From a virus (taxonomy: Duplodnaviria; Caudoviricetes), in the IMG/VR virus record IMGVR_UViG_3300016667_000797, positions 1-64,000 of that record: a stretch of 64,000 bases of DNA; one strand, given 5' to 3'. How positions within the stretch are numbered: the stretch's first letter is position 1; each line of letters starts with the position of its first letter. Made by a program: the position numbers and the translations under genes. Of this stretch, positions 28,555 to 39,458 are shown one piece after another. A model generated the notes under the pieces. That model made no database searches. It had not been told where the DNA came from and was given only the letters and a program-made list of their open reading frames with translations.

Positions 28555-29029
28555 ACTGTATGACTGGGCGGCCGAACAACGCGACTGGGCTAATGCGGAG
28601 GCCGAGCGCCTGGGTGCTCCGGAATCCCCGTTTGTACCTCCGCTAGGTCGTCGACCTGCCTCCGATCAGCTGGAGCGGTTTCTAAACCTGGCCGTGCCGG
28701 ACATGTACGCCTCATGGCAAGCGCTTCGGTTTATTCGCGAGCGGCATGATGAGGTTGTGCGCAACTACGAACTGCAAGAAGAGTGGGATTCCAATCCTGC
28801 CATCTATCACCGCATCAACCTGGTCAAGGGTGCGTTGGTAATCCTGGACAATGCGTTTCTTGCCTACGAGCAGCGCGAAGCTCGCACGGCCACCGCCATT
28901 GACCAGAAAAAGAAAGAGATCATGGAACTGCTCAAGACCGTTTTCAAAGACGGCAAGATCAAGTTCTTGGACACCGAAGAGGTTGAAAAGCTCGGCTTAG
29001 ACAACCTGTTTGACGAAGATGATGAGTGA
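28484..29029 (+). CDS. hypothetical protein
   Basis: AAGGAG SD before the ATG at 28484. Confidence 0.6.
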   Translation: MDISSPPYPKNNTSPQLLYRYLTELYDWAAEQRDWANAEAERLGAPESPFVPPLGRRPASDQLERFLNLAVPDMYASWQALRFIRERHDEVVRNYELQEEWDSNPAIYHRINLVKGALVILDNAFLAYEQREARTATAIDQKKKEIMELLKTVFKDGKIKFLDTEEVEKLGLDNLFDEDDE

Positions 29030-29271
29030 GTTTCACAACTATTTGGCATTTAAGGACTTCTAAAAAATCCAAAACGGATTTGTCAGAAGTCCTTATGCCT
29101 TAAATAGTTATTTTGTTCATTGCAACTAAATACGACGTAACGACTTATGGCGCTGCAGAAAAGCTAAACGCCATAAATCGTTATAAACTTAAAGTTTGTG
29201 GCGCTGACTTGTGTCAGAGCTACGTAATCCTACTACACAGCATAGGTTGCGGAAACCCTAAGGAGAATCTC

Positions 29272-29988
29272 ATGCCCAATCATTGTGAATGTCGGTTGAC
29301 GATCGGTGGTCGCGAGTCGGCAGTCCGTAAGGTGCTGAGCCGAATCAAGTCGACCAACGAGAAGGATGAAGTCACGCATTTTGACTGCAATCAGATCATC
29401 CCCATGCCCGAGTCGCTGGAGGGGACAAGTGCCGGTCCGTGCGAGCAGACGCATGAGGCATTGTTTGGTCAGATCACAGACGCCACGCATTTTACAGAAG
29501 ACCACGACTACGTCTCGGACGCGCTGATCGGTGAGTACCGATTTGAAAACATTCGGGCGTTGAATCATTACGTGACTCGATTCAACATCATCCGCTCTGA
29601 CATGTCTGACGAAGCTCGGATCAGTCAGGTGCGAGCCTGCGAAGAACAGGCCAAGCGCTACGAGTACAACATACAGACGTACGGGTGCCGTACCTGGTAC
29701 GACTGGGCGATTGAAAACTGGGGTACTAAGTGGGGTGCCTATGATGTTTGCGTACCGGAAATCAAGCCACTGTCCAAGGCGGGATGTATCCGGGCCAGTA
29801 TCCGGTTTGATTCGGCCTGGGGTCCGCCGGAGCCGGTGATTCGTCGGATGATCGAGATGTTCCCCAAGTGCCGGGTTACGCTCCGCTACTGGGAGGGCGG
29901 CGCTGGATTTCAGGGCAAAATCTCCGGATACAAGGGCAAAGTGACGGAAGAATATTTGCATGAATATCATGGCCGTCGAGGGGGTTGA
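29272..29988 (+). CDS. YubB/Api92-like ferredoxin-fold protein (DUF1281-like)
   Basis: MPNHC...FDCNQIIPMPESL...WYDWAIENWGTKW...FDSAWGPP...RYWE.G. Confidence 0.75.
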   Translation: MPNHCECRLTIGGRESAVRKVLSRIKSTNEKDEVTHFDCNQIIPMPESLEGTSAGPCEQTHEALFGQITDATHFTEDHDYVSDALIGEYRFENIRALNHYVTRFNIIRSDMSDEARISQVRACEEQAKRYEYNIQTYGCRTWYDWAIENWGTKWGAYDVCVPEIKPLSKAGCIRASIRFDSAWGPPEPVIRRMIEMFPKCRVTLRYWEGGAGFQGKISGYKGKVTEEYLHEYHGRRGG

Positions 29989-30101
29989 CTGGGTGATTAG
30001 ACTACATTATAGTTCTACTCATCAGGATCAGTTGCTGGTCATGAGCCGCAGGCGGTCTGCGGCTTTGGCAGCTAATACACAAGATAAGAAGGAGAAACAT
30101 T

Positions 30102-30455
30102 GTGGTGAAGTTAGCGCAAAAACCGGTTTTTAAGGCCAAAGACAAGGCCTTGCAGCGATTCGAGAACCTGCTGGTGTCGATCACTGGTCAGGTTCAAAGC
30201 GTTGATCGCCACGCTAAGGGTCATTTGTTCTTTGTCCTGAGCGACGCTCAGGTCACGGTGACAGGTCACGGTCCTGTGGATGATGTGAACTACATGCACC
30301 TCGGTTTGTTTGAATGGCAAACCTGGTTGAATCCGTCCATTGTGAAGGTCGGCGCAAAGCTGACTGCGACGGGTCTGGTTGAGCATTACCGTCGTCGTTC
30401 TAATGGCGAGGCGGGTTATGGAATCAGACGCATCATGGAACTACACCCGGGTTGA
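30102..30455 (+). CDS. small OB-fold-like protein
   Basis: SITGQVQSV...KGHLFFVLSD...VKVGAKLTATGLVEHY resembles an OB nucleic-acid-binding fold; AAGGAG SD. Confidence 0.5.
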   Translation: MVKLAQKPVFKAKDKALQRFENLLVSITGQVQSVDRHAKGHLFFVLSDAQVTVTGHGPVDDVNYMHLGLFEWQTWLNPSIVKVGAKLTATGLVEHYRRRSNGEAGYGIRRIMELHPG

Positions 30456-30488
30456 TCCTGGGTTGTTGGGTTGAAGTCGATAGGTACA

Positions 30489-30530
30489 GCTCACGCTAAA
30501 GAAGATTGTGTTGATCTTTTTGGCGTGAGC
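30489..30530 (+). promoter_or_regulatory. leader stem-loop upstream of the RAMP-like gene
   Basis: gctcacgctaaagaagat/atctttttggcgtgagc, a 17-bp stem with one G-U pair, 24 nt before the ATG. Confidence 0.5.
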
Positions 30531-30554
30531 ACAACGAAGGAAGCGATTAGGAAC

Positions 30555-31163
30555 ATGGCAATTGCTACAGAAACCAAGGTTCGGTTGGAAATCAAAGGCA
30601 TTCGTCCGCTGTTGATGCACTCAGCCCGGGCTTGCGATCCGCTTTCCGAAGAAGCGAAAGCGATGAAGCGGCTGACATCCATTCGTAAGAAGTCCGAAGA
30701 AGATATTCGGGCAATCTGCAAAGCCGACTGGGCTGCTGCTTTCTATTCGGACGAAAAAGGTCGCCCGATTGTTCCTGGCGATGTCATGCTTGGTGCGCTC
30801 ATCGCCGGAGCCAAGAAGTTGAAGCTCGGCCCGCAAGCCAAGGCCGGGATCATCGCGGTTGACGACTCGATCGTACTCAATCACGGACACCCTGCGGGCG
30901 AGTCTGCCACCGCGCTGGATTTCTGGAATGATGGTGTCGGTCCTTACGTCGACGCACGTGCTGTCAAGGTTCAGCAAGCTCGGTTGATCCGTTACCGCCC
31001 GCGGTTCAACTTCTGGACAATCAAGCCGGTTGTCTGGCTCTCTGACGAGGTGGACAAGGACATGCTTGAAAACATCGCCGAGACCGCTGGACGTCTTTGC
31101 GGCTTGGGTGATTTCCGACCCAGGTTTGGCGGGTTCGTCGTCGAACGTGTCACCGTGCTTTAA
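30555..31163 (+). CDS. stand-alone RAMP/Cas7-like RNA-binding protein (Vipr-like)
   Basis: N-terminal strand LEIKGIRPLLMHS, central P.....G.L..GAK helix, R.RPRF..W, and C-terminal Gly-rich loop AGRLCGLGDFRPRFGGFVV; immediately followed by the pentamer array. Confidence 0.75.
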   Translation: MAIATETKVRLEIKGIRPLLMHSARACDPLSEEAKAMKRLTSIRKKSEEDIRAICKADWAAAFYSDEKGRPIVPGDVMLGALIAGAKKLKLGPQAKAGIIAVDDSIVLNHGHPAGESATALDFWNDGVGPYVDARAVKVQQARLIRYRPRFNFWTIKPVVWLSDEVDKDMLENIAETAGRLCGLGDFRPRFGGFVVERVTVL

Positions 31164-31187
31164 TCCTGTCAACGCCTGACCAAACGT

Positions 31188-32166
31188 CTAGTTTAGGCTT
31201 GATATGTTAGGGCGCGGTTGGGTTTGCTACGGCGGGGTATGGTTGGGTATGGTGAGGCTCGGGCCGCAAGGCTAGTTTTGGCGAGGTACGGTTCGGCTGG
31301 GCGAGGCAAGGTCTGGCGAGGTCTGGTAATGCCTGGGCCGCAAGGCTAGTTGGGTGTGGTTGGACGCGGCGAGGTAGCGCCTGGTGTGGTGGGGCTTGGC
31401 AGGGCTCGACGTGGGCCGCAAGGCTAGCGAGGTTTGCTCTGGTTGGGCAGGGTCCGGTCTGTCAGGGTCCGGTCTGACAGGGGCCGAGAGGCTAGTTCAG
31501 GTTAGGCGAGCTAAGGTGAGGTGCGTCAAGGCGATGTCTGGCGGGGTCTGGTTGGGGCCGTAAGGCTAGTAAGGCCTGCCGTGGTGTGCAAAGGTAAGGC
31601 ACGGTACGGCGTAGCAAGGTCAGGGCCGGAAGGCTAGTTTGGCAAGGCGTGGTGAGGCCTGTTCTAGGCTGGGCAGGGCAGGGGCCGCAAGGCTAGCATG
31701 GTGTGGTAAGGCACGGACTGGTCTGGTACGGTGAGGACAGGTGAGGACAGGCAAGGTCTGGGCCGTAAGGCTAGTTACGGTGTGACCTGGTTGGGTGAGG
31801 TATGGTAATGCGAGGCGCGGTTAGGCTGGGTCAGGCTTGGGCCGCAAGGCTAGTCCGGTGAGCCATGGTAAGGTCGGGTTTGGCAAGGTCGGGTATGGTG
31901 TGTCAAGGGCCGAAAGGCTAGTTTTGGTATGCCCTGCCAAGGTAAGCCACGGCAAGGTGCGGTTTGGAACGGTTTGGGCCACAAGGCTAGCAAGGCTGGG
32001 TGTGGCGTGGCGTGGCGAGGTATGTCGAGGTCTCGTCAGGCGCGGTCCGGTCTGGTTAGGGCCGCAAGGCTAGTACGGTTTGCCGTGGCGGGGTACGGTT
32101 TGCCATGGCGGGGTTCGGTCTGCCGTGGCGGGGTCAGGTTCGGTGAGGCAAGGGCCGCAAGGCTAG
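31188..32166 (+). ncRNA. 13-unit guide-like array: GGY-NN pentamer runs separated by GGGCC-GNRA-GGCTAG hairpins (VIPR-like vrRNA array)
   Basis: Repeats start at 31261, 31335, 31413, 31481, 31555, 31623, 31682, 31760, 31839, 31907, 31976, 32059 and 32152; spacers are 44-78 nt and parse as a 3-4 nt leader plus 8-15 pentamers. Confidence 0.85.
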
Positions 32167-32196
32167 AGTTCACACAAACCATTTACAGAGGAAAAC

Positions 32197-32727
32197 ATGA
32201 GAATTGATCCACAGTTCATACAGTCGCTCAAAAAGGGCGACTGTTTGACGTTTGACGTCGTTTGTAGCTGCGCGGAGGCATCGGATGCTCTGCCTCGTTT
32301 GCTGAGTGATCAGGATAAGCGCATGTTGGCCTTGAAGGTGGCCAAAAAGATCGAACGTCAGCTGCATAAGATCGGACGTATCTGGACGTTAAGTGTAGGT
32401 AACGATTTTAGTGTGCAGGTTCTGACCGATTCTGACGCACTGACTTATCGACGACGGCAAGGCCGCAGCGGAGTCCGTAAGGTCCGCGGGTGCGCCAAAG
32501 GACTGGGCGGTATCGACACAGCTAACCTGTCCACCACAGAAAAAGTTGTGCATGACCGCGAGTTCACGCTGGCGGCATCTCGCGCGTTGGCATTGCGACG
32601 CCACTTGAGAAACAAAGATCCGTTTGAACGGATCAAACCAACCACAACAGAACAACTGGCCGCCTCACCTAAACAGGTGCGGCTCGATCCGTTTGACAGA
32701 TTCAAACAACCATCACAGGAGTCTTGA
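32197..32727 (+). CDS. array-associated accessory protein
   Basis: Starts 30 nt after the last repeat with a GAGG SD; basic helical LTDSDALTYRRRQGRSGVRKVR..A...IDTANLS..E...HD. Confidence 0.65.
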   Translation: MRIDPQFIQSLKKGDCLTFDVVCSCAEASDALPRLLSDQDKRMLALKVAKKIERQLHKIGRIWTLSVGNDFSVQVLTDSDALTYRRRQGRSGVRKVRGCAKGLGGIDTANLSTTEKVVHDREFTLAASRALALRRHLRNKDPFERIKPTTTEQLAASPKQVRLDPFDRFKQPSQES

Positions 32728-32730
32728 TAG

Positions 32731-33408
32731 ATGAACGCAACGACAACCAAGCTCAAGGTCATCATCACATTGGACGATGACGTAGACACGGACAGTCCGT
32801 TCAAGATGTCCGACTGGTCGCTACGTACGATACGCATGGGCAAGATTCATGACGTGGCGGATGGCTGGACGCTCAACGACGAGTTGGCTGCACCAGTCCT
32901 GGGCACTAACTGCTGGCAGATCAGCTGCTATCGTCATGGCTGCGAGTCCTGGTTCCTGGCGGGTGATCGTCCAGGTTCGTGCAAGTGGGACACGCGGCAG
33001 CTGGCGGGGTACCTGGTCTACAAGGGCGAAGACCCGCTAGAAAATCCCGAAGAAGCAGCTCGAGAGATGATCAAGGAATACGATCTCTGGGCCAATGGCG
33101 ACTGCTACTGGTACCGGATCGAGCAGGAGCACGACACCGGTCGCATGCGTAGGCCACATGCCTGTGAAAGCTGCCAGTGTCCAATGATTTCGGAAGATCC
33201 GGAAATTGAAGAAGAGTCCTATTGCGGCGGCCTGATCGGCTGGGACTACACCAAGGAAACCATTCGGGATGAGCTGCGGGCTATGACCGAGCGCAAGCAA
33301 ATCTCGCCCGAGGCTTACGTCCTCGCGCTCAATATTTCGTCCGAGTTGCGGTACCTGACGCAGGAACTACAAGAAGAGCTTCAGGCGCTAGGGTATTCCA
33401 TCGTCTGA
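32731..33408 (+). CDS. conserved phage hypothetical protein
   Basis: EYDLWANGDCYWYRIE...CGGLIGWDY. Confidence 0.65.
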   Translation: MNATTTKLKVIITLDDDVDTDSPFKMSDWSLRTIRMGKIHDVADGWTLNDELAAPVLGTNCWQISCYRHGCESWFLAGDRPGSCKWDTRQLAGYLVYKGEDPLENPEEAAREMIKEYDLWANGDCYWYRIEQEHDTGRMRRPHACESCQCPMISEDPEIEEESYCGGLIGWDYTKETIRDELRAMTERKQISPEAYVLALNISSELRYLTQELQEELQALGYSIV

Positions 33409-33446
33409 ATTTCGGGCTAAGATAGGCACGACAACCAAACATTTAC

Positions 33447-33735
33447 CCGGTGACTATGCTGATGTACATTTGGTTGGCGCGCGTCGTGTGGGTGGTCCTT
33501 TTTCAGCCGCTTTCGTTCCAAACAGATCAAGGGCAGGATCGGCCCTTGAGCGGCGCACGCCGACCAAATGTACATCAGTATCGCCGGTAGGTGTTTTGCA
33601 TTTCTCCAGTGGTGATGCCGCCTTGTATCTCAGGCGGCGTGTGGTGGGTGTTCGGCTTTCCTTTGACTTTGTAGCCATAGCGCCTCAACCGAATCGAGAA
33701 CAGGATCGGTTCTCGAGCGCCACACAAACCACTGG
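33447..33735 (+). ncRNA. two tandem paralogous structured-RNA candidates
   Basis: Long stems with G-U pairs on the + strand; both carry an 8-bp stem with an identical AGGATCG loop and compensatory stem changes. Confidence 0.6.
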
Positions 33736-33752
33736 ATGTTCAAATCTGGAAT

Positions 33753-34142
33753 TTAACCGCTGACGTGATTCATCTTGCAGTCCGCAAACTCGTCCTGGTT
33801 CACCAGGCTGGTGATCTGGTTCTTCAACGCGACGCGTTGGCGGTTCAGATCGCGCACGACAATGGCACGGCGGCCGACCTCTTCCAGGCCCAGGCGGTCA
33901 TCCAGACCCTTGCGGATTGCCCATTCGGCGTCCCAGATCTGGCCGTTGATCTCTCGCAGGTCGACGATCAGGTTTTGTAGTGGTATGTTGCGTGGGTCGA
34001 CACCGGACCAGTAGTAGGCAATCTGTTTCCGCAATCCTTGTTTGTCCAGCTCGTCATCGGGCAACCGCTCGTATTTGAGCTGGGCAATGGTCAGCCGGTC
34101 GCAGAGCTCGCAGATGGGCATGGCGATGGCTTTCACAGACAT
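33753..34142 (-). CDS. DUF6165-like protein
   Basis: MPICELCDRLTIAQLK...LREINGQIWDAE..IR...RAIVVRDLNRQRVALKNQI. Confidence 0.65.
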   Translation of the reverse strand: MSVKAIAMPICELCDRLTIAQLKYERLPDDELDKQGLRKQIAYYWSGVDPRNIPLQNLIVDLREINGQIWDAEWAIRKGLDDRLGLEEVGRRAIVVRDLNRQRVALKNQITSLVNQDEFADCKMNHVSG

Positions 34143-34161
34143 TCTAACCTCGGAGGTATCT

Positions 34162-35331
34162 ATGAAGTTGCTTGTGGCAAGTGATCTGCACTTGAGTGAT
34201 CGTATCTGGCGGCACCGGCCCATCGAGGGCGACAGCTATCATAGCTGGAAGCAGATCGTGGACCTCGCGATTCAGGCCCGTGTCAATGGTGTGATTTTGG
34301 CTGGCGACATTCTGGACAAGCAGTCCAATCTTTCCGGACCGGCTCTTATGCTGACGCAAGGATTGGCTCGTTTGACTGAGGCCGCAATTCCAGTCTACTA
34401 CAATCAAGGGCAGCATGAGTACCAAGGTAAACCTTGGATGTCTCTGATACCAGAAACGCAATGGATTCACGAAAAACTCGTACCATTGCCAGAAGGCTGG
34501 AAGATGGTCGGGTGCGACTATCAAAACGAAGAGAACTTTCAGGCGTTCTTGAGAAGCGACATGGCCCGCGCAGCCGACATCCTGGTATGTCACCAGGTCT
34601 GGCGAGACTTCATGGGCGACACAGGCAAACCCCAGGCCTCGTTTGATGATGTACCTGAAAACGTCAAGATACTGATTACTGGCGATTTTCATAAGCATCA
34701 ATTAGTGACTAATGCTGCTGAGACGTTGGCGGTGTTGTCTCCCGGCAGTACGCATAAGCGGTCGATTGCCGAACCGGATCCCCATGCGGTATTCCTGCTT
34801 AATCTGCGCAACGTGGCAAATTGTCCGACACCAGCCCTTGGAAGGCCGGTGGAAGGCTATACTGCGCGCACGATCTACATACGGACACGGCAGTGTGTCC
34901 GAGTAACAGCTAAAGGGATAAGTTATGCGCAGCTGCAGGAGCAAACCGATGCCGCGCTGGCGGACGCCGCGGAATTGGCCGAGGCATACCGTTTACCGGA
35001 CCAACTTCGTATGCCCTTGATGCAGCTGACGCATACCAGGCAGGACGCGGATCTGGTGCGCAAGTGGCAACAGGCTTACCACGGCAAAGCCCACCTCTTC
35101 TTCAAACAAGTTGGTGAGACCGTGGACGAACACGAGGAGAATCGTGAGTTCATGCAGCATATGGACCCGACGGACCGGGTTGGTATGCTGGGGTGCGTTG
35201 ATAACTTTATCAACAGGCAGGAACATCCCGACAGGTATGGGCTCGCCCTATCGTTACTGCACAGCCCGGACTACGAGCAAGCGCTCCACCGATGGGTCAA
35301 GGAACAGCTCACCCATGACAACCCTGTATGA
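34162..35331 (+). CDS. sbcD: SbcD/Mre11-like metallophosphoesterase nuclease
   Basis: SDLHL, LAGDILD, GQHE, VCHQ, TGDFHK, SPGST. Confidence 0.9.
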   Translation: MKLLVASDLHLSDRIWRHRPIEGDSYHSWKQIVDLAIQARVNGVILAGDILDKQSNLSGPALMLTQGLARLTEAAIPVYYNQGQHEYQGKPWMSLIPETQWIHEKLVPLPEGWKMVGCDYQNEENFQAFLRSDMARAADILVCHQVWRDFMGDTGKPQASFDDVPENVKILITGDFHKHQLVTNAAETLAVLSPGSTHKRSIAEPDPHAVFLLNLRNVANCPTPALGRPVEGYTARTIYIRTRQCVRVTAKGISYAQLQEQTDAALADAAELAEAYRLPDQLRMPLMQLTHTRQDADLVRKWQQAYHGKAHLFFKQVGETVDEHEENREFMQHMDPTDRVGMLGCVDNFINRQEHPDRYGLALSLLHSPDYEQALHRWVKEQLTHDNPV

Positions 35332-38963: not shown

Positions 38964-39458
38964 ATGCGGGAACTCAGCGTTCGGATCCGTTTTACAAACC
39001 CAAGTCTGGGAAATGAAAAAGACCCCAAGACCGGGCGTTTCAAGTTCCAGCGCAGCCCGGGTCGAGAAGGAAAAATTCTTTTCCTGGCCACCTGGCACCA
39101 CAGCAACATGAAACTGGCGGCCGAGATGATGGGCCGACACCAGGAATCGGTAAAGCAGATCTGCTGGGACATCGAGGTTGATGCCCAGCTGCGCGAAAAG
39201 TGTCTGATCCGTTGCTTCTATCAGAAGTCACCGGGCGGGCGCGAGCGCTGGAGCCTGCACGAATCACTCATGGCCGGGCAAACCATCGTGGTCAACTGCG
39301 TGGTGCCTGCCGACATCGACGATCAGGATTTCTGGACGTTGATGCAGATTGCCGGGAAGTACAAAGGATTGTCGCCCTGGCAGCCAGGCAAGTACGGCCA
39401 ATATGAGGTGGTCAGCATCCATCCTCGCCGGTCTCGATTTGAGTCCGACCTGGGTTAA
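38964..39458 (+). CDS. second, divergent RAMP/Cas7-like protein
   Basis: VRIRFTNPSLG N-terminal strand, HESL..G and a C-terminal AGKYKGLSPWQPGKYGQYEV Gly-rich loop. Confidence 0.55.
   Translation: MRELSVRIRFTNPSLGNEKDPKTGRFKFQRSPGREGKILFLATWHHSNMKLAAEMMGRHQESVKQICWDIEVDAQLREKCLIRCFYQKSPGGRERWSLHESLMAGQTIVVNCVVPADIDDQDFWTLMQIAGKYKGLSPWQPGKYGQYEVVSIHPRRSRFESDLG

What the first reader, a model, noticed from the sequence alone, without database searches (positions are those of the whole stretch)
30555..32727. RAMP/Cas7-like protein plus a 13-unit GGY-NN pentamer guide array plus an accessory gene: a VIPR-like RNA-guided system
Seen: a 202-aa ORF with RAMP hallmarks (N-terminal strand LEIKGIRPLL, C-terminal Gly loop GRLCGLGDFRPRFGGF). 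It is followed within about 25 nt by a roughly 1-kb G-rich non-coding tract. The tract is cut by 13 copies of GGGCC-NNNN-GGCTAG, and 12 of 13 loops are GNRA (GCAA x7, GTAA x2, GAGA, GGAA, GAAA; one ACAA). The stems include a G-U pair, which points to a + strand RNA. Each inter-repeat segment parses as a 3-4 nt leader plus 8-15 pentamers, mostly GGY-NN. Example, 31276-31334: tttt|ggc GA|ggt AC|ggt TC|ggc TG|ggc GA|ggc AA|ggt CT|ggc GA|ggt CT|ggt AA|tgc CT. The trinucleotide is near-constant while NN varies. No cas1/cas2/cas3 was recognised in the window. Knowledge: Cas7 RAMPs polymerise along guide RNA with a fixed periodicity. From memory (please verify), a phage system named VIPR was reported with alternating GGY/NN RNAs whose NN bases specify a gapped DNA target. 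Inference: this phage makes 13 processed guides that load a RAMP filament, probably directed at competing phages/MGEs or at gene repression.
Basis: partly seen in the sequence, partly recalled or inferred. Interest (0 to 1): 0.96.

Follow-up and report, generated by a model that had tools for sequence, protein, structure and literature searches.

The report
Phage VIPR locus, 13 short-tailed guides
This uncultured phage carries a genuine example of the VIPR RNA-guided DNA-silencing system described in 2026 (a Cas7-like protein, 13 pentamer-repeat guide RNAs and an accessory gene), unusual only for its very short guide tails and its gene order, and with targets still unknown.

Summary

- **Protein.** The 202-aa protein matches the solved SUSP1 Vipr protein over its full length (E 4.8e-25). 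It keeps Vipr's RNA- and DNA-contacting residues, and its model resembles Csm3/Cas7.
- **Guide array.** The 1-kb tract holds 13 guide units. Each has 8-15 GGY-NN pentamers and ends in an identical 15-nt hairpin with a GNRA-type loop.
- **Accessory gene.** The downstream 176-aa gene is the homologue of the gene that follows vipr in the nearest relatives. It is probably a distant vap1.
- **Setting.** The record is a 78-kb fragment of an uncultured phage. It has no Cas1 or Cas2.

VIPR was published in three 2026 preprints, and this scan has already noted it in more than 200 genomes. This is therefore a new member of a known kind. Three features differ from the characterised type II loci:

- the tail is 15 nt rather than about 40 nt;
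- there are 13 tightly packed guides;
- the array lies between vipr and vap.

No target was found with the limited scans available, and no guide matches the phage's own genome. Expression, RNA processing and targets remain untested.

The parts
30555..31163 (+). vipr: a 202-aa Vipr (stand-alone RAMP/Cas7-like) protein
   Evidence: - phmmer to PDB 36pp_D 'SUSP1 Vipr protein': E 4.8e-25, residues 10-198 against 5-189.
- phrog_4652: E 2.7e-42.
- 33% identity to the phiSUSP1 gene product.
- AlphaFold model pLDDT 94.7; top Foldseek matches are Csm3/Cas7, probability 1.0, E about 2e-6.
- SUSP1 functional residues H17, K33, R39, K82, R138, C173, D177, W178 and R179 correspond here to H22, K38, R44, K87, R148, C182, D186, F187 and R188.
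31192..31275 (+). vrRNA 1: leader, 13 pentamers (10 canonical), 15-nt GCAA hairpin tail. It is preceded by a half-tail, CTAG, at 31188-31191.
31276..31349 (+). vrRNA 2: 11 pentamers plus GCAA hairpin tail
31350..31427 (+). vrRNA 3: 12 pentamers plus GCAA hairpin tail
31428..31495 (+). vrRNA 4: 10 pentamers with an internal 15-nt duplication, plus GAGA hairpin tail
31496..31569 (+). vrRNA 5: 11 pentamers plus GTAA hairpin tail
31570..31637 (+). vrRNA 6: 10 pentamers plus GGAA hairpin tail
31638..31696 (+). vrRNA 7: 8 pentamers with a 1-nt frame slip, plus GCAA hairpin tail. This is the shortest unit and possibly a degenerate one.
31697..31774 (+). vrRNA 8: 12 pentamers with an internal 10-nt duplication, plus GTAA hairpin tail
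31775..31853 (+). vrRNA 9: 12 pentamers plus GCAA hairpin tail
31854..31921 (+). vrRNA 10: 10 pentamers with an internal 15-nt duplication, plus GAAA hairpin tail
31922..31990 (+). vrRNA 11: 10 pentamers (only 6 canonical) plus ACAA hairpin tail, the one loop that is not GNRA
31991..32073 (+). vrRNA 12: 13 pentamers plus GCAA hairpin tail
32074..32166 (+). vrRNA 13: 15 pentamers made of about three copies of a 20-nt block, plus GCAA hairpin tail
32197..32727 (+). vap: a 176-aa vipr-accessory protein, probably a divergent vap1
   Evidence: - Full-length BLASTP matches to the gene that overlaps the vipr stop codon in related viral loci: L005 E 7e-20, L006 E 2e-20.
- hhalign of this family against the SUSP1/LESphi2 vap1 family: probability 78%, E 1.9e-5, 117 collinear columns.
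- No Pfam or PHROG family.
- The model is only moderate (pLDDT 69) and has no significant fold match.

Best explanation
This is a VIPR (Viral Interference Programmable Repeat) system in an uncultured phage, organised as one operon: vipr, then an array of 13 vrRNAs, then vap.

**Shown here**
- The protein belongs to the Vipr family and keeps the residues that grip the GGY bases and the DNA in the solved SUSP1 complex.
- The non-coding tract has the published vrRNA make-up (GGY-NN pentamers plus an invariant 3' element).
- The downstream gene is the accessory gene that travels with vipr in related loci.

**Inferred from the published type II systems**
- The + strand is transcribed with the genes, and the transcript is cut or trimmed into 13 RNAs of about 59-93 nt.
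- Vipr protomers polymerise one per pentamer and hide each GGY.
- The NN pairs read double-stranded DNA with one skipped base per unit (NNxNNx...).
- Binding silences transcription of a competing phage, satellite or other mobile element, with help from Vap.

For: **The protein**
- Sequence match to the solved SUSP1 Vipr: E 4.8e-25, full length. Identity is 33%.
- phrog_4652: E 2.7e-42.
- The family has 2245 representatives at E <= 0.001 in a library of 1.8 billion proteins.
- Model pLDDT 94.7, with Csm3/Cas7 as the best folds.
- The functional residues named in the cryo-EM paper are conserved.

**The array**
- Pentamer statistics and period-5 autocorrelation.
- 13 identical tails.
- Loop variation confined to the N and R positions of GNRA in 12 of 13 tails.
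- Stops in all three frames.
- No GGY-NN run of 5 or more canonical units, and no GGCTAG on the + strand, anywhere else in the record.

**The locus and its relatives**
- The vap gene is syntenic and homologous in relatives.
- Relatives carry vrRNAs with tails.
- In the tree, this protein forms a clade with L005, L006 and L056 (support 100/98). That clade is sister to the clade holding SUSP1 and LESphi2.

**Context**
- Phage setting: terminase, DNA polymerase, helicases, SbcCD, UvsX. The record is an IMG/VR virus record.
- No Cas1 or Cas2.
- No self-target above the shuffled null, as the published systems also report.
Against: - No transcription, processing or RNP data exist for this locus.
- No promoter-like or terminator-like site was found next to the array.
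- About 22% of the units are not canonical GGY. In SUSP1, guides whose GGY motif was changed to AGY, GAY, GGA or AAY abolished silencing (GGY perturbation; substitution constructs listed in the fig. S12 legend).
- vrRNA 7 has a frame slip.
- The tail is far shorter than any characterised one and cannot form the SUSP1 pseudoknot.
- No natural target turned up in the scans run: five guides in viral contigs, one in genome contigs, one in metagenome contigs, and one guide with up to 3 mismatches in 406 genomes.
- The link of Vap to vap1 rests on a 78% profile match only.
Confidence: 0.88

Rival explanations
1. A decaying or inactive VIPR relic: the genes and the array descend from a VIPR system but no longer silence anything.
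For: - 33 of 147 pentamers depart from GGY, and vrRNA 11 has only 6 of 10 canonical units.
- vrRNA 7 has a frame slip.
- Several guides are built of internal duplications.
- No target was found.
- The tail is minimal.
Against: - Both ORFs are intact, and the Vipr residues that hold G1, G2, Y3 and the DNA backbone are conserved.
- All 13 tail stems are identical, and the loops vary only where GNRA allows, in 12 of 13. This points to purifying selection on the RNA.
- The published paper calls internal degeneracy of vrRNAs frequent.
- The target scans were few and mostly exact-match only.
Confidence: 0.07
2. The G-rich tract is not a guide array but a DNA-level element, such as a G-quadruplex-prone region, an iteron or origin-like repeat, or a recombination hotspot. 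On this view it merely sits beside a RAMP gene in the replication module.
For: - The locus lies among replication and recombination genes.
- The tract is 44% G on one strand.
- It contains tandem duplications.
Against: - The pentamer grammar, the unit number and the 3' element match the published vrRNA definition.
- The G-U pair in the stem works only in + strand RNA.
- Every related vipr locus examined carries the same kind of tract next to vipr.
Confidence: 0.02
3. A CRISPR-Cas derivative: a mini-array with 15-nt repeats and 44-78-nt spacers, served by a Cas7.
For: - The Vipr model resembles Csm3/Cas7.
- There are regularly spaced identical repeats.
Against: - The 'spacers' are themselves GGY-NN repeats, not captured foreign DNA.
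- There is no Cas1 or Cas2 in the record.
- Rfam finds no CRISPR repeat family.
- The protein matches Vipr by sequence and Cas7 only by fold, at 12-15% identity.
Confidence: 0.01

Closest known systems
Type II VIPR systems of Escherichia phage SUSP1 and the Pseudomonas fulva prophage (bioRxiv 10.64898/2026.04.26.720920; structures in 10.64898/2026.04.26.720927, PDB 36pp/36PK)
   Same: - A Vipr protein of the same size (202 aa), alignable end to end, with the GGY-binding and DNA-clamping residues kept.
- vrRNAs of 8-15 GGY-NN units on the gene strand, each ending in an invariant structured 3' element that starts with GG.
- A small accessory gene with a vap1-like profile.
- A phage context, with no cas genes and no CRISPR array.
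   Different: - Only 33-39% protein identity. The protein sits in a sister clade.
- The tail is a 15-nt hairpin with a GNRA loop, not a tail of about 40 nt with a pseudoknot or two hairpins.
- There are 13 guides in one block spaced 18-19 nt apart, against 3-6 guides in the loci I read.
- The array sits between vipr and vap. In SUSP1, LESphi2 and the nearest relatives, vap abuts or overlaps vipr and the vrRNAs flank the pair.
Uncultured-virus VIPR loci L005-L009 (IMG/VR) and L056 (Geobacter MAG), the nearest relatives found
   Same: - Vipr is 46-48% identical.
- The same vap family: E about 1e-19 for L005-L009; the vap of L056 was not compared.
- Single-hairpin tails.
- Closely packed vrRNAs, with gaps of 10-45 nt.
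   Different: - Their tails are hairpins of about 32 nt with 12-bp stems.
- They carry 2-3 vrRNAs upstream of vipr; L005-L009 also carry 2-3 downstream of vap, while none was called downstream in L056.
- In L005 and L006, the loci where ORFs were read, vipr and vap overlap by 4 nt.
'Staggered' vrRNA arrays mentioned in the VIPR discovery paper (fig. S18 legend)
   Same: [quoted passage not shown] There is no ribozyme between units: Rfam finds no hammerhead.
   Different: Only the figure legend could be read. I could not check whether those arrays use a short hairpin or belong to the same Vipr clade.
Class 1 CRISPR-Cas backbone proteins (Csm3/Cas7)
   Same: RAMP fold with a glycine-rich loop and a thumb. 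The published work shows one protomer per repeat unit along a guide RNA.
   Different: - Fold-level likeness only (TM about 0.5, 12-15% identity).
- No adaptation genes and no spacer-repeat array.
- The guide is read discontinuously.

Membership tests
VIPR system | A Vipr protein: a stand-alone RAMP homologous to the published Vipr family | tested here: met
   - phmmer E 4.8e-25 to PDB 36pp_D 'SUSP1 Vipr protein', full length.
- 33% identity to the phiSUSP1 gene product.
- It falls inside the tree of Vipr homologues from phage loci that carry vrRNAs.
VIPR system | RAMP hallmarks: an RRM core, a glycine-rich loop, a thumb, and the residues that hold G1, G2 and Y3 | tested here: met
   - Model pLDDT 94.7, with Csm3/Cas7 as the top folds.
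- H22, R148, D186, F187 and R188 align to SUSP1 H17, R138, D177, W178 and R179.
- K38, R44 and K87 align to the DNA-contact residues K33, R39 and K82.
- K88 of SUSP1 is not conserved.
VIPR system | vrRNA genes: tandem GGY-NN (YNNGG) pentamers, about 9-16 per RNA, with hypervariable NN | tested here: met
   There are 13 tracts of 8-15 units. G, G and Y occupy positions 1-3 at 95%, 83% and 94%. All 16 dinucleotides are used at NN.
VIPR system | An invariant structured 3' tail after each repeat tract | tested here: met
   An identical 15-nt hairpin follows each tract. It is much shorter than the roughly 40-nt tails described, and whether it works as a tail is untested.
VIPR system | A minimal locus with a vipr-accessory (vap) gene, no cas genes and no CRISPR array | tested here: met
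   - vap homologue.
- Cas1 and Cas2 are absent from the 78-kb record.
- No Rfam family in 29000-35000.
- Limits: the record is only about 37% complete by CheckV, and Cas3 was not tested.
VIPR system | vrRNAs are expressed, processed and bound by Vipr | not testable with these tools
   This needs small-RNA sequencing and a pull-down.
VIPR system | The guides match natural DNA targets by the 1-nt skip rule and do not match their own genome | tested here: inconclusive
   - No self-match above the shuffled null in the 78-kb record.
- No target found. The scans covered only 6 of the 13 guides, were exact-match in the collections, and allowed up to 3 mismatches only in 406 genomes for one guide.
VIPR type II (SUSP1 / P. 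fulva type) | Vipr phylogeny, the vap1 accessory gene and the type II array layout | tested here: inconclusive
   - The protein lies in the sister clade to SUSP1/LESphi2.
- The vap1 profile match is 78%.
- The layout differs: the array lies between vipr and vap, and the tail is short.
- The paper's type table and tree were not available as text.
CRISPR-Cas | A repeat-spacer array with foreign-derived spacers, plus the cas1/cas2 adaptation module | tested here: not met
   The inter-repeat segments are pentamer repeats. No Cas1 or Cas2 was found.

The most novel reading that the evidence does not exclude
The 15-nt hairpin (4-bp stem, GNRA loop) may be a complete, working vrRNA tail. That would make it the smallest VIPR handle so far. 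It would also mean that 13 guides can be released from one vipr-array-vap transcript without ribozymes or long tails.

If so, this locus would define a compact, multiplexed array form in a sister clade of type II. It would also set the minimal requirement for capping a Vipr filament.

A further untested possibility concerns the guides built of 10-, 15- and 20-nt duplications: they may be aimed at tandemly repeated DNA with 6-, 9- and 12-bp periods.
Probability: 0.45. Interest if true: 0.55.

Novelty: new member of a known kind. Interest (0 to 1): 0.4.

Why it matters
VIPR is a newly described RNA-guided DNA-recognition system with a non-contiguous code. Natural diversity shows which parts are essential.

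- **Tail length.** This locus suggests the guide tail can shrink to a 15-nt tetraloop hairpin.
- **Packing.** It suggests more than a dozen guides can be packed head to tail inside the operon. Both points are useful for designing compact multiplexed guide arrays.
- **Processing.** It bears on how vrRNAs are processed.
- **Range.** It extends VIPR to a very divergent uncultured phage lineage, whose terminase is at most 28% identical to that of any cultured phage.

It does not change the picture of what VIPR is.

Tried and rejected
**Target search**
- Own 78-kb record, all guides: the best matches equal the shuffled-guide null.
- All 54 loci fetched by then: nothing reaches 80% of NN except two chance-level 16/20 matches.
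- Exact NNx patterns for guides 2, 12, 13, 9 and 10 in viral contigs: none.
- Guide 13 in genome contigs: none.
- Guide 2 in metagenome contigs: none.
- Guide 12 with up to 3 mismatches in 5 genomes that carry related Vipr genes, and in 401 genomes of one phylum: none.
- Reading the guides as codon positions 1-2 gave no motif I could recognise.

**Sibling arrays with the same tail**
- None in viral contigs.
- The single metagenome hit, L055, is an unrelated 22-23-nt tandem repeat.

**Other searches**
- Close relatives by single-protein patterns: none.
- megablast of 24 kb of the window against cultured phages: none.
- Host assignment failed.
- Vap fold: Foldseek and VIA-align gave no match above background. 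Pairwise BLASTP to SUSP1, LESphi2 and MakoManhole neighbours was not significant.
- Rfam: nothing in 29000-35000.
- Folding the whole array is uninformative.

**Tools unavailable**
- The preprint's supplementary tables are not held.
Full report
**What is there.** The window is the first 64 kb of a 78,373-bp IMG/VR virus record. The record is linear, 56% G+C, and about 37% complete by CheckV. It encodes a large terminase, a DNA polymerase, helicases, SbcCD and a UvsX-like recombinase. It has no tRNA genes. No cultured phage is close: megablast finds nothing, and the terminase is at most 28% identical to any cultured phage's.

Three + strand features sit among the replication and recombination genes:
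- ORF 30555-31163, 202 aa;
- a 1,033-nt tract without a credible ORF (31164-32196);
- ORF 32197-32727, 176 aa, followed 3 nt later by the next gene.

**The observation.** The motif GGGCC-NNNN-GGCTAG occurs 13 times without mismatch, all on the + strand between 31261 and 32166. GGCTAG occurs nowhere else on the + strand of the record. The loops are GCAA x7, GTAA x2, GAGA, GGAA, GAAA and ACAA. Each 15-mer folds into a 4-bp stem with one G-U pair (-6.1 kcal/mol).

Anchoring each inter-hairpin segment at its 3' end gives a 3-4-nt leader and 8-15 pentamers:
- position 1 is G in 137 of 144 units;
- position 2 is G in 119 of 144;
- position 3 is C or T in 136 of 144;
- positions 4-5 are mixed, and all 16 dinucleotides occur;
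- the autocorrelation of G peaks at 5, 10 and 15 nt.

By my parse, 114 of 147 units are canonical GGY. The rest mostly keep G1 and Y3 (GCY, GAC, GTC) or read TGY. Segment 7 has a 1-nt slip. The first unit is preceded by a half-tail (CTAG, 31188-31191) and a TTTA leader, so it has the same 5' context as the others. All three + frames are full of stops (13-17 each). A period of 5 is incompatible with coding.

**The protein.**
- Pfam has nothing for it. PHROGs places it in phrog_4652, of unknown function (E 2.7e-42).
- Against the sequences of solved structures, it matches chain 36pp_D, 'SUSP1 Vipr protein', over residues 10-198 (E 4.8e-25). It is 33% identical to the gene product read from phage phiSUSP1.
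- The cryo-EM preprint names the residues that hold the GGY bases: H17 and D177 for G1, R138 and W178 for G2, R179 and C173 for Y3. It also names those that clamp DNA: K33, R39, K82.
- In the alignments these correspond here to H22, D186, R148, F187, R188, C182, K38, R44 and K87. Most are invariant or nearly so among 25 homologues. SUSP1 K88 is not conserved.
- An AlphaFold model built on that alignment has mean pLDDT 94.7. Its best Foldseek matches are Csm3/Cas7 subunits of type III CRISPR complexes (probability 1.0, E about 2e-6, TM about 0.5). That fold library predates release of the Vipr structures.
- The family is large: 2245 representatives at E <= 0.001, the nearest 53% identical.

**The accessory gene.**
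- The 176-aa protein has no Pfam or PHROG family.
- In the closest viral relatives (L005-L009, Vipr 48% identical) the gene next to vipr overlaps its stop codon by 4 nt. That gene is homologous to the 176-aa protein over its full length (E 7e-20 and 2e-20).
- Clustering the genes that follow vipr in the fetched loci gives one family with SUSP1 vap1 and the LESphi2 gene, and a second family with this protein and L005-L009.
- A profile-profile comparison joins the two families at 78% probability (E 1.9e-5, 117 collinear columns). The protein is therefore the syntenic Vap and probably a distant vap1.
- Its model is only moderate (pLDDT 69), and no fold match stands above background. The DNA-binding role proposed for vap1 in the preprint is not confirmed here.

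**Comparison with what is published.** Three 2026 preprints describe VIPR:
- a Vipr protein and vrRNAs of 9-16 GGY/NN repeats followed by an invariant tail (about 40 nt, with a pseudoknot in the SUSP1 clade);
- one protomer per repeat;
- NN bases that pair with double-stranded DNA, skipping every third base;
- transcriptional silencing of satellites, prophages and rival VIPR systems;
- seven types with vap1-6;
- array forms that include staggered and hammerhead-interspersed arrays.

This locus meets every sequence-level criterion. In a maximum-likelihood tree of 34 Vipr sequences it forms a clade with L005, L006 and L056 (a Geobacter MAG), with support 100/98. That clade is sister to the one holding SUSP1 and LESphi2.

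**What differs.**
- **Tail length.** In SUSP1, LESphi2, Medea1 and some twenty metagenomic relatives, tails are 30-45 nt. They consist of a first hairpin that starts GG-GCTG plus a second hairpin or pseudoknot, or of one 12-bp hairpin. Those loci carry 2-6 vrRNAs flanking the vipr-vap pair. Here the tail is reduced to 15 nt, which resembles only the first small hairpin of the LESphi2-type tails.
- **Packing and number.** The units follow one another every 18-19 nt beyond the repeats, and there are 13 of them.
- **Position.** The whole array is inserted between vipr and vap.
- **Precedent elsewhere.** Short tails of about 22 nt and arrays placed directly after vipr do occur in a much more distant Vipr clade, with tracts of 13-42 units. 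Compactness itself is therefore not unprecedented in the family.
- **No sibling found.** No second array with this tail was found in viral or metagenome contigs.

**Evidence that the hairpin is under selection as RNA.** All 13 stems are identical. Six of the seven loop changes fall at positions that GNRA leaves free (N and R). The G-U pair would be an A-C mismatch in the opposite strand. There is no covariation to test, because the stems do not vary.

**Targets.**
- Using the published rule (NN joined by one wildcard, both strands), no guide matches the phage's own 78 kb better than shuffled guides do. This agrees with the published absence of self-targeting.
- No guide matches the 54 related loci fetched by then.
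- Exact scans of five guides in viral contigs, one in genome contigs and one in metagenome contigs found nothing.
- Guide 12 with up to 3 mismatches found nothing in 406 bacterial genomes.
- These scans are a small fraction of what a mismatch-tolerant search would cover. The host is unknown, so the absence of a target is uninformative.
- Several guides contain internal duplications of 10, 15 or 20 nt. This could reflect growth by slippage, or targets that are themselves 6-, 9- or 12-bp tandem repeats.

**Mechanism and confidence.** That this is a member of the VIPR family is about as firm as sequence analysis allows. The following steps are inferred from SUSP1 and P. fulva and were not shown here:
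- co-transcription with vipr and vap (no terminator-like site lies between them);
- release of 13 RNAs;
- filament assembly on GGY;
- gapped reading of DNA;
- silencing of a competitor.

How a ribozyme-free, tightly packed array is cut is unknown. The simplest guess is trimming by host RNases down to the Vipr-protected repeats and the stable tetraloop hairpin.

**Verdict.** The system is already in print, and this scan has noted VIPR-type loci in more than 200 genomes. I file it as a new member of a known kind, of moderate interest for its minimal tail, its 13-guide array and its gene order.

Noticed in passing
window 38964-39458 (+): A 164-aa ORF in the replication cluster has a C-terminus that aligns to the glycine-loop end of the Vipr family (hhalign probability 82.5%, E 1e-5), but over 38 columns only. 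It has no Pfam, PHROG or PDB sequence match and no pentamer array nearby. It may be a second, very divergent RAMP-like protein.
   Followed up: partly
window 30489-30530 (+): A strong hairpin lies between the upstream OB-fold gene and the vipr ribosome-binding site (-24 kcal/mol, z -3.8). No U-run follows it. It may be a regulatory or processing element of the operon.
   Followed up: partly
window 30102-30455 and 29113-29988 (+): The genes just upstream of vipr encode a 117-aa protein with sub-threshold matches to OB-fold nucleic-acid-binding domains (best PF13742, E 4e-5, 24.1 bits against a cut-off of 27) and a 291-aa protein with a DUF1281_C / Api92-like ferredoxin-like domain (E 1.7e-9). 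Neither is shared with related VIPR loci.
   Followed up: no
Rfam finds no family in 29000-35000. I did not examine them further.
   Followed up: no
L031-L050 (IMG/VR loci; Vipr 26-28% identical): A distant Vipr clade has arrays directly after vipr. Their GGY-NN tracts are very long (13-42 units) and are separated by A/T-rich tails of about 22 nt, such as CTCTGGCGAGAAATTTTTAT.
   Followed up: partly
L055 280-570 (metagenome contig Ga0307414_10220383): An unrelated tandem repeat of 22-23 nt happens to contain GGGCCGTGAGGCTAG. It has no pentamer structure and no vipr gene.
   Followed up: yes
whole record G000: GGCTAG occurs on the + strand only at the 13 array tails in 78 kb. This suggests the hexamer (it contains CTAG) is avoided elsewhere in the genome.
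   Followed up: no
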